Shown here: positions 2,307-10,430 of the stretch, one piece after another | Layout of the letters: each line of letters starts with the position of its first letter | How positions within the stretch are numbered: position 1 is the first letter of the stretch | Assembly: GCA_000165425.1 (NCBI GenBank) | Contig: CT868020.1 | Coordinates: forward strand, 244,699-264,698 | DNA from: Paramecium tetraurelia | Lineage: Eukaryota | DNA length: 20,000 nt | Direction of reading: 5' to 3' | Made by a program: the position numbers and the translations under genes | Notes under the pieces: model-generated | What the model saw: the letters and a program-made list of their open reading frames with translations, nothing else | Told to the model about the DNA's origin: nothing | The model's database searches: none

Positions 2307-2594
2307 GAATCCAATCCATATATTCAAATATAGATGTGTAATAATAATAATTATTATTATCATCATCATTTGTTTCATATTTATATAAGATTTAGTCTCC
2401 CTTGATTTATTTATAAGAACAAGGTATGGGATCTACTCTTCCTCTATTTCCCTGCTTGATTTTCGCAAGATCAAAACGAAAACTAATTTAAATTCGATTC
2501 TTAATACAAAGTTTATATTATTTTTCCTAAATATTAGAATGAAAAATAAGTGATACAAAATAGACTAGCTTTAATAATTATTTCAAATATCGAG

Positions 2595-4408
2595 ATGTAT
2601 ATTGAGTATGTTTAGAATAATTTCAACCCCTCTGCTTCAGAATTAGAGTTATTGAAATCCTAAGAAATAAAAGAATTATACGAATATATTTAGCAATAAG
2701 GAGGATTTATTAAAGTATCATAGAACACTATTTGTAGTATTATTCGCAACAGTACAATGAATTTCAATCCTATGATAACAATGAAATTCTGCAATTGTTT
2801 CAAAAATACTTATTAAATTATGAATTGAGAACAACAGATGTGGATGGACAATATCTGCACAGATGTGCATATATAGAACTTAATAAAGCAATAAATTGTT
2901 TTACAGAACCTCCGTAGATGTGGCTATAAGATTAAGTTACTCTATGGTCGTTGCCTAATTATGTATCTGCAGAATTGAACAAAAATCTGTTTACTTTCTA
3001 AGATTTATCAAAAAATCACAAAAATTTTGAAATTGATATTATAGCTTAGAATCCATTTACTGATACAACATTGGCAGAGGAGGAAAATTATTATTAAACC
3101 TTCAGAATGACATTAAGTTAATATAAAGAATATGCCGAAGATCCAAAATTATTTTTTTAAAACAATCCCCAATATAAAAGTGATAAAGTTTACTAGGCAG
3201 TAAATGTTGATATGGAGGACTGGAAGGAGGAAATCCATAGATTATTTGATTTCTTACCCACCTGCTTCACAAGAAACAACGGATTGAATTATCTAAGGTA
3301 GAATTGTAAAGGTGCAAATGTGCCAGAAATATACATGAGAGTCTAGAATTGTTGGATAGGGGGATAATAGGATTTTTAAGGTCTGAGTTAAGTTAATATC
3401 AATCACGGCCCAGGAGATTGTGTTTGGACGATTATTGATGCCAACTATATCGATAAGTTATTTTCTATAACTCCTGATTTATTCAGGAAGGAGGGAAGGT
3501 GGTATGTCAATATTGAGTTTTTCCTCAAAAATCAAATACCTGTTAGACAAGTAATTTAAAAAAAAGGGGATATACTTATAATTGGGGCGGGATGTTTTTT
3601 TTAGGCCAAAAATATTGGAAATTCTATTCACACATCCTTCAATTTCTTAATGGTGGATGAATTTTCTATTCAACAAATTTATAAAAGACAGAATAGGAAT
3701 GATTTCTTTCGGTTTTAGGATGTTATTGCAATCAGAAATTTGTTTTTAGACATTTATATCCATGAGAAGTTAAGTATTTTACAAAACTACTTAAAATATT
3801 TTATCGATTAAGAATTTCGGCGTTAATTATCAAAAAATAAATTAACTAACTTTGAGTTATTTATATCTTCAAAAGATGTCTTAATTTGTACTAAATGCAA
3901 TAAAGAAATCTTTATATTTTTTTAATTCATCAAAGATTGGGTATATTATTGCCCAGATTGCTACGTTGATTATGAAAAAGTAATATACATGAAATACAGC
4001 ATTATCTAATTGAAATATCTCATTTAAGCTGATAACATTTAATGCTCGAAATTGTTGTGCAGTAACTATGTTGGGGAATCGAATTGTGCCTTAAAGTAGA
4101 TAATCTAAGAACAGGTTTAATTATCGGAGGAAGAAGATAATTCATCGATTTTTGAAAGTAGAAAATTCTTGGATGAATTCATTGTTGGGTTAAACATGGA
4201 ATCGTTGAATTCTCATTTATAAAATGGAGTATCTCAACAATAAGATGTTTTAAGTAATGACACTAGGCAAGTTCAAAAAATAACAAAGAAAATCAAGACT
4301 ATCAAATTACAACAGGTAAAAAAGAAGAAGCATAAAAAAAGTGCAAAATATTCAGAACTTTAAGTAATTAAGTACATATAATAAACCAAAAGAAGCATCT
4401 TAAATTGA
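2595..4408 (+). CDS. ARID + KDM6/UTX-type JmjC + C4 zinc-binding protein (~596 aa), predicted catalytically inactive; start codon uncertain
   Basis: One intron 2715-2737, then a TGA-free frame to 4408. ARID-like IKELYEYIQQQGGF...LQLFQKYLLNYE. KDM6-type GANVPEIYMRV...VNINHGPGDCVW and IPVRQVIQKKGDILIIGAG. Zinc motif CTKC...YCPDC, and a basic C-terminal KKKKHKK. Confidence 0.85.
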
Positions 4409-4648
4409 TGAATTAAATTATACATATATTATCTATAGCAATGAATCATTTCATGGAAATTATTGAATATTTTATAATTGTACTTATTTATTCAATTATT
4501 ATAATAAAGATTAATTAGCATTTTGCCATTTATACTAAATTTTAATCGAAGTGATTCCAACCGCACTGCATTTACAATCTAGTTTGATAATCAAATAACA
4601 TAATATTAGATGTATTGTTAAATTATCTATTAAACACAAATTATGTAA

Positions 4649-5385
4649 TCAATTTATTCCCCATATTTTTTCAAATACCTTATAATATGTGCTTTTTAAA
4701 GATTTTGGCTAATATCAATAAGCTTTCTTACATCATGTTGATAATAATAATGTATGATAGCGATAACAAATGAGAAAACAATAACATCTCCATGAGGAAT
4801 GTCTATCATTTTTCCCCTGCTTTTTAATAGGTTTATAACTGTTTCGCAAAATCTAGGAACTATACTTAAACAAATTTCCATTGCTCTACAATGAAATTCT
4901 AGAAATACCTAGTATTAGATTCTAGAAGGAGAGCAAATGAACTTATGAATCCACCAGATAATGGAACAAATGGGTCGACCTTTTTGAGGAGATTTTTTTG
5001 TTTGCACCAATTATATCTGAGGATTTGAACCATAAAGGAGAGGAAACAAATGCTTTTAAAATATGAAACAAGAGCTCTGCTTATTGTGGATATAGGACTA
5101 ATGATTCAATAGTATTTATGATACCTCTTCATAACTTGTTTTCGTTTGTACAGCAGAAAAGGAATCAGATGAACTGGTAAATACACTTTTGAATTGGATC
5201 TCATGATTCTTGGAAGACTATAATAAGGGATTTCGAATTATACTTACTTTGATAAAATGTTTATTTCACAAGATAGTCCAGGATGCACGATTTCACAACT
5301 AAAGGGAGTTCCTAGTAGTTGGATGGATGATTCTACCTGATTAAATGATTAATTGATCTGCTGCACTGATCACATAACTAGTCAT
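4649..5385 (-). CDS. TMEM135/PMP52-like membrane protein
   Basis: MTSYVISAADQLIIQSG|TPFSCEIVHPGLSCE (intron 5312-5336), VYLPVHLIPFLLY, MEICLSIVPR, FSFVIAIIHYYYQHD|PKSLKSTYYKVFEKIWGIN*. These match the TMEM135 pattern. Several short introns. Confidence 0.8.
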
Positions 5386-5437
5386 GATAATTTTATTTAT
5401 TTTAAAATTTTAGTTGAAATCAATGGATTATAAACAT

Positions 5438-9747: not shown

Positions 9748-10430
9748 ATGGCTTCCTAAAATAGACCACCTTAAACTCGTCAATTGACTAAACCTAAATG
9801 TATTTGTCTAATTTTAACCTACTAGTTGACAAACTCAGCGATGTCAAACCAGGAATTCATGGATATAATACCTACGTCAAAGTAAGACTCAAATATCTAA
9901 ATCCTAGATTGAAGAAATCAAGAAAGAATAAATCAAAAGATATGACGGATCAACTTTGATTGTTGCTGAAGGTTTGGCCGGAGATGAGACTGGAGTCATT
10001 AGATTCAGAGTTGTTGGAGAATACGCCAACTAACTTGAGAAGGGTAAAAGTTATGCATGGAGAAACGGATTGTCTGAAGTCGTTCAAGAAAGACACAGAC
10101 TTTCACTTGATTAATTTGGACGCATAACTCCTGAAAAAGTAAATTAAGCAATTTATATATCAGGATGATTTAGTTGTCGTCAACTAAAATGGCAAGAAAT
10201 ACTCTGACATTGAATATGTGAGAAAGGAACCAAGACCAAATACAAACAGAAGAGAAAACAGAGACAATAGAGATAACAGAGACAATAGAGACAACAGAGA
10301 CAACAGAGATAACAGAGACAACAGAGATAACAGAGATAACAGAGAAAATAGAGATAATAGAGATAACAGAGGATAAAGAAGACCTTAAGGTAACAGAGGA
10401 AATAGAGGAGGAAATTAAAAGAGAGATTGA
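9748..10430 (+). CDS. Single OB-fold nucleic-acid-binding protein (At4g28440/SSB-like) with (NRD)n and RG-rich tail, ~201 aa
   Basis: LTKPKFDKLSDVKPG, VAEGLAGDETGVIRF, WRNG, RLSLDQFGRI, YSDIEY. Introns 9800-9825, 9882-9907 and 10139-10163. TGA at 10428-10430. Confidence 0.85.
10257..10373 (+). repeat. Coding 9-bp minisatellite, 13 units of AAY-AGA-GAN, encoding (N-R-D/E)12 then NRG
   Basis: Direct count of units (aacagagac/aatagagat/aacagagat...). Variation is almost all at synonymous third positions. Confidence 0.95.

What the first reader, a model, noticed from the sequence alone, without database searches (positions are those of the whole stretch)
2595..4408. ARID-fused KDM6/UTX-type JmjC protein with both Fe(II)-binding histidines lost: candidate H3K27 pseudo-demethylase
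Seen: the segment aligning to UTX/JMJD3 LYMKVPGSRTPGHQENN reads IYMRVQNCWIGGQQDFQ (HxE to QxD at 3365-3373; the 2-oxoglutarate Lys and Thr become Arg and Ile). The distal His of NAGTVHW reads GAGCFFQ (F at 3599-3601). The ORF is otherwise intact and keeps NINHGPGDC and the C4 Zn motif. Known: KDM6 enzymes remove H3K27me3, H3K27me3/H3K9me3 laid by Ezl1-PRC2 guides DNA elimination in Paramecium, and JARID2 is a dead ARID-JmjC PRC2 cofactor in animals. Inference: a non-catalytic chromatin reader or scaffold, possibly a convergent JARID2-like factor built on a KDM6 core.
Basis: partly seen in the sequence, partly recalled or inferred. Interest (0 to 1): 0.7.

Follow-up and report, generated by a model that had tools for sequence, protein, structure and literature searches.

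The report
Catalytically dead KDM6 paralog in Paramecium
This Paramecium gene makes a conserved, transcribed copy of a histone-mark-erasing enzyme that has lost its catalytic residues, one of three such dead lineages in the genome, and it probably binds the mark that guides DNA elimination instead of removing it.

Summary
The gene (2595-4408, ciliate code, one 23-nt intron) encodes a 596-aa P. tetraurelia KDM6/Jmj1-type protein (GSPATT00032584001). The iron ligands read Q250-x-D252...F328; the 2-oxoglutarate Lys/Thr are R241/I247 (T-to-I alone abolishes UTX activity). The ARID is a degenerate remnant of an ARID-JmjC layout shared with active paralogs and other eukaryote KDM6-like proteins, not a JARID2-like fusion. 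No JmjC protein is among the published Ezl1 partners. New here: 5 of 8 KDM6 paralogs in this genome lack the triad, in three clades that do not form one group (AU p=0.002). Only this clade keeps the substrate-side residues (UTX Y1135, E999, N1087, D1089, G1128 equivalents). Best reading (0.45): a non-catalytic H3K27-tail binder that tunes or shields H3K27me3 against its active sister enzymes. H3 binding, developmental timing and a role in DNA elimination are inferred, not shown.

The parts
2538..4436 (+). Transcribed unit (extent of a spliced transcript contig; true ends not shown by a contig)
   Evidence: Run X4 contig of 1876 nt lies at 2538-4436 with 23 letters left out at 2715; sense-strand reads in X22-X24
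2595..2714 (+). Exon 1 (residues 1-40)
2715..2737 (+). 23-nt GTA..TAG intron, phase 0; an intron sits at the equivalent position in 6 of 8 paralogs
2738..4408 (+). Exon 2 (residues 41-596, stop TGA 4406-4408)
2595..2827 (+). Degenerate ARID-like helical module (residues 1-70, spans the intron); keeps the LY..I...GGF and KYLL.YE motifs; the Trp present in 13 of 13 family ARIDs is Tyr here
   Evidence: family ARID profile 13.9 bits, 0 of 200 shuffles reach it; hhalign of pooled Paramecium N-termini 80.5%, clade C alone 12.7%; no Pfam ARID
3035..3049 (+). D140-x-I142-x-Q144 = UTX E999-x-R1001-x-Q1003; acidic residue kept, Arg changed to Ile in 2 of 9 clade members including this one
3203..3211 (+). 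N196-x-D198 = UTX N1087-x-D1089, kept in 9 of 9 clade members
3329..3646 (+). JmjC domain (residues 238-343)
   Evidence: Pfam PF02373 E 7.8e-13; best structural matches KDM6A/B/UTY
3332..3340 (+). Y239 (UTX Y1135, methyl-lysine contact, kept) and R241 (UTX K1137, changed)
3356..3376 (+). I247 (T1143), Q250 (H1146), D252 (E1148), F253 (N1149): altered cofactor and metal strand
3599..3601 (+). F328 in place of the distal iron-binding His (UTX H1226)
3887..3961 (+). C4 zinc-binding module (C424, C427, C445, C448)
   Evidence: invariant in 8 of 8 paralogs; aligns to the KDM6 Zn domain at family level
4043..4087 (+). Three further cysteines (C476, C481, C490), invariant in 8 of 8 paralogs; possible second metal site (inference)
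4286..4342 (+). Lys-rich cluster in a low-confidence tail, NLS-like (inference)

Best explanation
A functional pseudo-enzyme. The gene arose by duplication from the active Paramecium KDM6/Jmj1-type demethylase (clade A, L003) before the last whole-genome duplication. It replaced its iron and 2-oxoglutarate ligands and has since been held by purifying selection. Shown: fold, ligand loss, conservation, splicing and transcription. Strongly inferred (about 0.93): no Fe(II)/2OG demethylase activity. Inferred (about half of the remainder): it still docks the H3 tail around K27 through the retained groove, Y239 and the Zn domain, but cannot remove the methyl groups. It would then occupy H3K27-methylated nucleosomes as a competitor or shield against the active paralogs (L003, L004, L005), or as a docking platform, and so tune where and how long Ezl1-laid H3K27me3 persists in the developing macronucleus. 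The developmental setting is inferred from Tetrahymena Jmj1p, not shown here.
For: Both His ligands, the Glu, and the 2OG Lys and Thr are changed. Single H1146A or T1143I changes abolish UTX activity in cells (PMC3459986, passages). 9 of 9 clade members from five species keep Q-x-D...F at 68-98% pairwise identity. dN/dS against the syntenic ohnolog is 0.14 (bootstrap 0.10-0.20) and 0.10 in the JmjC core. Invariant columns: JmjC 112 of 155, tail 39 of 101. A spliced transcript exists, and sense reads per billion letters were 1.0, 5.1 and 0.8 in three poly(A) runs while two neighbours stayed within 1.4-fold. The AF2 model (pLDDT 80) matches KDM6 best over JmjC, helical and Zn domains (Foldseek E 4e-27; VIA Z 29.4, rmsd 3.5, 390 aligned). 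Y1135, E999(D), N1087, D1089, G1128, N1156, W1166 and N1240 equivalents are kept in 9 of 9 of this clade; the first five are lost in dead clades D and E. Y1135 and E999 roles are; the N1087, D1089 and G1128 substrate roles are recalled. Tetrahymena Jmj1p confines H3K9/K27me3 to eliminated DNA (PMC5357732, passages).
Against: No direct evidence of H3 binding, nuclear location or stage of expression. Several pocket positions are remodelled (N1149 to F, S1154 to Q, Q1133 to E, W1227 to Q, W1239 to F), so the methyl-lysine site may be filled or changed in specificity. R1001 is Ile in this copy. The retained residues could reflect closeness to active clade A rather than function. Invariance of the 11 replaced pocket sites (10 of 11) is not significant against the JmjC background (p 0.12). 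Constraint is about 2.5- to 3-fold weaker than in the active pair L004/L005 (0.056 overall, 0.03 in JmjC), and dS of 1.2-1.5 is near saturation. Transcript depth is low (about 1x in two of three runs) and the run conditions are unknown. The co-PGM promoter motif is absent (5 mismatches).
Confidence: 0.45

Rival explanations
1. Non-catalytic anti-silencing scaffold that works like S. pombe Epe1: the dead JmjC protein binds an HP1/chromodomain partner or an active Jmj paralog, not the methyl mark itself, and helps confine heterochromatin at the borders of eliminated DNA.
For: Descends from the Jmj1-type family that acts as a boundary factor in Tetrahymena, where recruitment by HP1-like Coi6p was proposed (PMC5357732). 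Epe1 opposes heterochromatin non-enzymatically through Swi6 (PMC7192584, abstract only). The pocket is remodelled while the fold is conserved.
Against: Only this clade keeps the substrate-side residues; clades D and E, which lost them, fit a pure scaffold better. No partner data.
Confidence: 0.22
2. JARID2-like PRC2-Ezl1 cofactor that recruits or stimulates Ezl1.
For: Dead JmjC plus ARID-like module plus Zn finger resembles JARID2 in outline. The recombinant Ezl1 core is inactive without cofactors (10.1101/2021.08.12.456067, passages).
Against: The ARID remnant is shared with active paralogs. The core is KDM6, not JARID2. The model is ordered from residue 1, so there is no long disordered N-terminal arm, which is where JARID2 binds PRC2 (recalled). 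No JmjC protein is named among the Ezl1 partners in that paper's main text, and 'jmj' has 0 hits in PMC13159322; their supplements could not be read.
Confidence: 0.08
3. A slowly decaying duplicate kept mainly by dosage balance or fold-level constraint, with no specific new function.
For: The ohnologs are only 68-70% identical against 90% for the active pair; dN/dS is relaxed about 2.5-fold; expression is low.
Against: Both ohnologs are retained in four of five species sampled. dN/dS is far below 1. A long stem (0.66) is followed by short crown branches, the pattern of a shift followed by constraint.
Confidence: 0.12
4. Neofunctionalised enzyme or small-ligand binder: the rebuilt pocket (R241, Q250, D252, Q258, N260, H338) binds another metal, metabolite or substrate.
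For: The replaced residues are fixed, not random (10 of 11 invariant; p 0.01-0.02 against the whole protein). An acidic residue is kept at the Glu position.
Against: No histidine is left in the facial triad; Phe and Ile occupy the metal and 2OG positions; 135 of 141 relatives keep H-x-E...H.
Confidence: 0.08

Closest known systems
KDM6A/UTX, KDM6B/JMJD3, UTY (H3K27 demethylases)
   Same: Best sequence and structure matches: JmjC, helical and C4 Zn domains; Y1135, N1156 and W1166 equivalents kept.
   Different: Fe triad and 2OG Lys/Thr replaced; no TPRs found by Pfam; N-terminal ARID remnant; three extra conserved Cys.
Mouse UTY (impaired KDM6 with demethylase-independent roles)
   Same: Carries the same Thr-to-Ile change at UTX T1143 (PMC3459986).
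   Different: UTY keeps H1146/E1148 and loses Y1135; this protein loses the triad and keeps the Tyr.
Tetrahymena Jmj1p (JMJD3-type boundary factor)
   Same: KDM6-type ciliate JmjC acting on H3K27me3 during DNA elimination (PMC5357732); probable family context.
   Different: Described as an H3K27 demethylase. I did not identify its sequence among my hits, so orthology is untested; the likely counterparts are active L003/L004/L005.
JARID2
   Same: Inactive JmjC with an ARID and a Zn finger (domain list recalled).
   Different: Different JmjC lineage (E 2.5e-13 against 1e-104); no N-terminal arm; ARID degenerate and ancestral; no PRC2 link found.
S. pombe Epe1
   Same: JmjC protein with a non-enzymatic role in heterochromatin control (PMC7192584, abstract).
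   Different: Acts on H3K9me/Swi6 chromatin; a different JmjC subfamily (recalled).

Membership tests
KDM6 (UTX/JMJD3) family, by descent | JmjC domain closest to KDM6 in sequence and fold | tested here: met
   phmmer: 9 of 9 PDB hits at E<=0.001 are KDM6A/B/UTY; Foldseek and VIA top ranks are KDM6
KDM6 (UTX/JMJD3) family, by descent | Helical domain plus C4 Zn-binding domain after JmjC | tested here: met
   Four Cys invariant; model aligns 73-475 to KDM6B 9nqu_K; Pfam KDM6_GATAL itself not hit
Active KDM6 demethylase | H-x-E...H Fe(II) triad | tested here: not met
   Q250-x-D252...F328 in 9 of 9 clade members
Active KDM6 demethylase | 2-oxoglutarate ligands K1137, T1143, N1156 | tested here: not met
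   R241, I247 (Ile 8, Leu 1 of 9); N260 kept
Active KDM6 demethylase | Methyl-lysine Tyr (Y1135) and substrate acid (E999) | tested here: met
   Y239 and D140 in 9 of 9; Asp is also the residue in active clades A and B
Active KDM6 demethylase | H3K27me2/3 demethylation | not testable with these tools
   Needs an enzyme assay
ARID domain (PF01388) | Profile match over the curated cut-off, conserved Trp helix | tested here: inconclusive
   No Pfam hit on the spliced protein; significant against a profile of 13 family ARIDs; Trp replaced; a family alignment that includes those ARIDs hits ARID structures at positions 3-90, best E 3.3e-4
JARID2 | JmjC of the JARID2/KDM5 lineage | tested here: not met
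JARID2 | Inactive JmjC site | tested here: met
   (by sequence)
JARID2 | Long disordered N-terminal PRC2-binding region (recalled) | tested here: not met
   Protein starts with the ARID-like module; pLDDT 85-95 over residues 1-80
JARID2 | Association with PRC2 | tested here: inconclusive
Tetrahymena Jmj1p orthologs | Orthology in a tree with Jmj1p | not tested
   Jmj1p was not identified among the unnamed representatives

The most novel reading that the evidence does not exclude
Paramecium has repeatedly turned copies of its H3K27 demethylase into a set of pseudo-enzymes (three independent losses, 5 of 8 genes). This clade is a dedicated H3K27me3 shield or reader built from the eraser itself. 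It competes with the active Jmj enzymes to set the border and lifetime of the Ezl1 mark and so helps decide which germline DNA is eliminated.
Probability: 0.2. Interest if true: 0.8.

Novelty: new variant of a known kind. Interest (0 to 1): 0.52.

Why it matters
In Paramecium, H3K27me3/H3K9me3 laid by PRC2-Ezl1 guides programmed DNA elimination. Writers and readers are described, but my searches of the held library found no paper on its erasers. This analysis names three candidate active KDM6 genes and five dead ones in three lineages, and singles out one lineage that keeps the substrate-side residues. That makes the question of how the mark is confined and removed directly testable by RNAi. 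It is also a clean case of repeated pseudo-enzyme birth after gene duplication, apparently limited to the KDM6 branch, since the KDM4-, KDM5- and JMJD6-like loci read keep their triads. Dead JmjC proteins as such are known (JARID2, Epe1, mouse UTY), so the kind is not new.

Tried and rejected
Pseudogene or frameshift artefact: rejected (intron spliced in RNA; same residues in five species). The T8 run at the F327-F328 codons is not a sequencing slip: the frame stays open and no indel was listed there (low depth in that bin). Single origin of all dead paralogs: rejected (AU p 0.0019, catalytic columns removed). WGD synteny linking clades A-E: none within about 10 kb; only C37/C48 are collinear. 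Complex prediction of residues 72-492 with H3(6-41): no answer (score 0.02; unmethylated peptide; alignment not used); this is no evidence either way. ESM Atlas search of residues 1-80: no family named. A single-sequence fold of a 61-aa fragment was poorly chosen and uninformative (pLDDT 62), so the ARID fold was not tested structurally on its own. The VIA wide search listed no ARID chain in its top 50, which JmjC chains fill. The 'longer' homolog search found 0 of 2466 candidates (weak). The look-up of sequencing runs: no RNA holder listed on record. Autogamy expression and IP data: supplements of PMC3091696, PMC11723920, PMC10711438 (table cut at 4,086 rows) and PMC11385659 gave no hit; PMC10066578 gave rows for a guessed scaffold prefix that I could not assign to this gene; PMC5485702's expression table and the supplements of PMC13159322 and PMC11724296 were too large. 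These unseen tables may bear on timing and on the PRC2 link. Chung and Yao 2012 and Sengoku and Yokoyama 2011 are not held. Literature searches for a description of this gene or of dead ciliate KDM6 proteins showed none in the listings. Earlier scan findings: none. An early notebook entry that the 2OG Asn became Ser was wrong and was corrected (N260 is kept).

Full report
Gene and observation. The window reads with the ciliate code. The own-genome search places it at G000:C37:244699-264698 in a 72.09-Mb, 697-contig assembly, and the encoded protein is annotated as P. tetraurelia GSPATT00032584001 / XP_001430130. The ATG at 2595 opens only 77 codons; removing a 23-nt GTA..TAG intron (2715-2737) gives 596 aa ending at TGA 4406-4408, identical to database protein P0003. 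An intron sits at the equivalent position in 6 of 8 paralogs. A transcript contig of run X4 spans 2538-4436 with exactly these 23 letters missing. Three stranded poly(A) runs give sense reads: 1.0, 5.1 and 0.8 mean depth per billion letters read, against 7.8-10.5 and 21.0-23.5 for the two neighbours. The gene is therefore transcribed at a low and apparently variable level; the conditions of these runs are not known and counts are small.

Family and catalytic site. Pfam finds JmjC at residues 238-343 (E 7.8e-13). All 9 PDB sequence hits are KDM6A, KDM6B or UTY. An AlphaFold2 model from a 52-sequence alignment (pLDDT 80.3, tail below 50) matches KDM6 structures first by Foldseek (E 3.9e-27) and VIA (9nqu_K Z 29.4, rmsd 3.5, 390 aligned). 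In UTX numbering the site reads Y1135=Y239, K1137=R241, T1143=I247, H1146=Q250, E1148=D252, N1149=F253, S1154=Q258, N1156=N260, H1226=F328. In PMC3459986 (passages read) H1146A, T1143I and Y1135C each abolish UTX activity in cells, and Y1135 contacts two methyl groups of K27me3. PMC9111933 (passages) names Y1135, K1137 and N1156 as active-site residues and E999 as a sequence-specific substrate contact. Of 146 representatives outside the Paramecium clades, 141 cover the triad and 135 keep it. Loss of Fe/2OG chemistry is thus a strong inference, not a measurement.

Not a pseudogene. Nine sequences form this clade (C): two each from P. tetraurelia, octaurelia, primaurelia and pentaurelia and one from sonneborni. 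All 9 have Q-Q-D and F at 68-98% pairwise identity. The second P. tetraurelia copy (L002) lies in a collinear block, so the change predates the last genome duplication. Nei-Gojobori dN/dS for L001/L002 is 0.14 (bootstrap 0.10-0.20), 0.10 in JmjC and 0.25 in the tail; the active pair L004/L005 gives 0.056 and the other dead pair L006/L007 0.15. dS is 1.1-1.5 over whole genes, near saturation, so these values are rough. Selection is purifying but weaker than on the active enzyme.

A family of dead paralogs. The genome holds 8 KDM6-type genes (8 of 8 candidates scored, a lower bound). Three keep H-x-E...H (L003; L004/L005). Five do not: clade C (Q-D-F), clade D L006/L007 (K-E-Y) and clade E L008 (S-D-S). 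In a 34-row tree of the exon-2 core with nine catalytic columns removed and eight outgroups chosen from the representatives, Paramecium genes are one group (100/100), E joins active B (97/95), D joins A+C (99/95) and C joins active A (90/86, not starred). A tree with C+D+E held together is rejected (AU p 0.0019). That means at least two and most simply three separate losses; the tool warns that long branches meet. Clade C has a long stem (0.66) and short crown branches. Only C keeps the equivalents of E999, N1087, D1089, G1128 and Y1135 (9 of 9 each); D and E lose all five. The substrate roles of N1087, D1089 and G1128 are recalled, not read. Twelve KDM4-, KDM5- and JMJD6-like loci keep H-x-D/E...H, of 14 printed; one showed only the distal His and one was not resolved.

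ARID. Pfam gives no ARID for the spliced protein or eight other proteins scanned. Of 57 representatives I chose to scan, 13 match ARID at E<=0.05 (6 over the curated cut-off), and 9 of the 13 have an intact triad. A profile of those 13 scores the first 90 residues at 13.9 bits (L001), 20.9 (L002) and 19.1 (active L003), with 0 of about 200 shuffles as high in each case; over the full-length protein L001 is not significant (E 0.77). hhalign gives 80.5% for pooled Paramecium N-termini, 12.7% for clade C alone and 0.2% for clade D. The Trp seen in 13 of 13 family ARIDs is Tyr here. So the module is a real but worn ARID remnant inherited from an ARID-JmjC ancestor. It is not a fusion special to the dead copy, and DNA binding is doubtful.

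Mechanism. The anatomy is an intact KDM6 scaffold with substrate-side residues and Zn domain kept, and metal and cosubstrate sites rebuilt. The simplest reading is a protein that still docks the H3 tail but cannot demethylate it, and so competes with or complements the three active paralogs (0.45). Against it, N1149F, S1154Q, Q1133E, W1227Q and W1239F reshape the pocket; R1001 is Ile in this copy; and the invariance of 10 of 11 replaced sites is significant against the whole protein (p 0.01-0.02) but not against JmjC (p 0.12). The developmental context rests on Tetrahymena Jmj1p, whose loss spreads H3K9/K27me3 and causes ectopic elimination (PMC5357732, passages). No stage-resolved expression could be read for this gene, and the co-PGM promoter motif of PMC10711438 is absent. 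An Epe1-like scaffold (0.22; PMC7192584, abstract), slow decay (0.12), a new ligand (0.08) and a JARID2-like PRC2 cofactor (0.08) remain. The last is weakened because the family profile matches KDM6 at E 1e-104 and JARID2 at 2.5e-13, and because the Ezl1 purification preprint names Caf1, Eed, Suz12.like, Rf1a/b, Rf2, Rf4, Eap1 and Ptiwi09 and never mentions a Jmj protein in its main text (supplements closed).

Context and novelty. Neighbours are unrelated housekeeping genes (OSCP, calcineurin-like phosphatase, MFS transporters, E2 enzyme, DHHC, kinase). Inactive JmjC proteins are a known kind. My searches of the held library (listings only, most subscription journals not held) showed no description of this gene or of dead KDM6 paralogs in ciliates. 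Verdict: a real, conserved KDM6 pseudo-enzyme and a new variant of a known kind. The repeated losses make it more interesting than the single gene; the JARID2 analogy is mostly not supported.

Noticed in passing
L006 (G000:C668), L007 (G000:C624), L008 (G000:C335): Two further dead KDM6 clades: D (K-E...Y, no ARID remnant, intronless 5' end) and E (S-D...S, sister to active L004/L005). Both also lose the methyl-lysine Tyr and are conserved in other aurelia species.
   Followed up: partly
L003 (G000:C447:274539-275336), L004 (C697), L005 (C613): Three KDM6/Jmj1-type genes with an intact H-x-E...H triad and 2OG ligands: the likely true H3K27 demethylases of P. tetraurelia; I found no paper on them in the held library.
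   Followed up: partly
P0046, P0056, P0110, P0133, P0144, P0156, P0009: KDM6-like proteins from other eukaryotes also lack triad residues (6 of 141 representatives, plus P0009); four carry an ARID match. Pseudo-KDM6 proteins seem to have arisen in other lineages too.
   Followed up: no
P0019, P0046, P0067: Other domain partners on KDM6-like cores: ARID plus a TFIIS/Med26 helical bundle (P0019), PHD finger (P0046), Myb (P0067).
   Followed up: no
window 4043-4087: A three-cysteine motif after the C4 Zn domain is invariant in all 8 Paramecium paralogs, active and dead; possible second metal site.
   Followed up: no
L004, first intron: The intron at the conserved position ends in GAG, not TAG.
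   Followed up: no
window 9960-10430 (+): ORF with a tandem Arg-Asp-Asn tripeptide repeat of about ten copies followed by an Arg/Gly-rich end; no Pfam match.
   Followed up: no
window 4733-5400 (-): Small, multi-intron, well-expressed gene converging on the JmjC gene; no Pfam match for the one frame scanned; conserved at the ohnologous locus.
   Followed up: no
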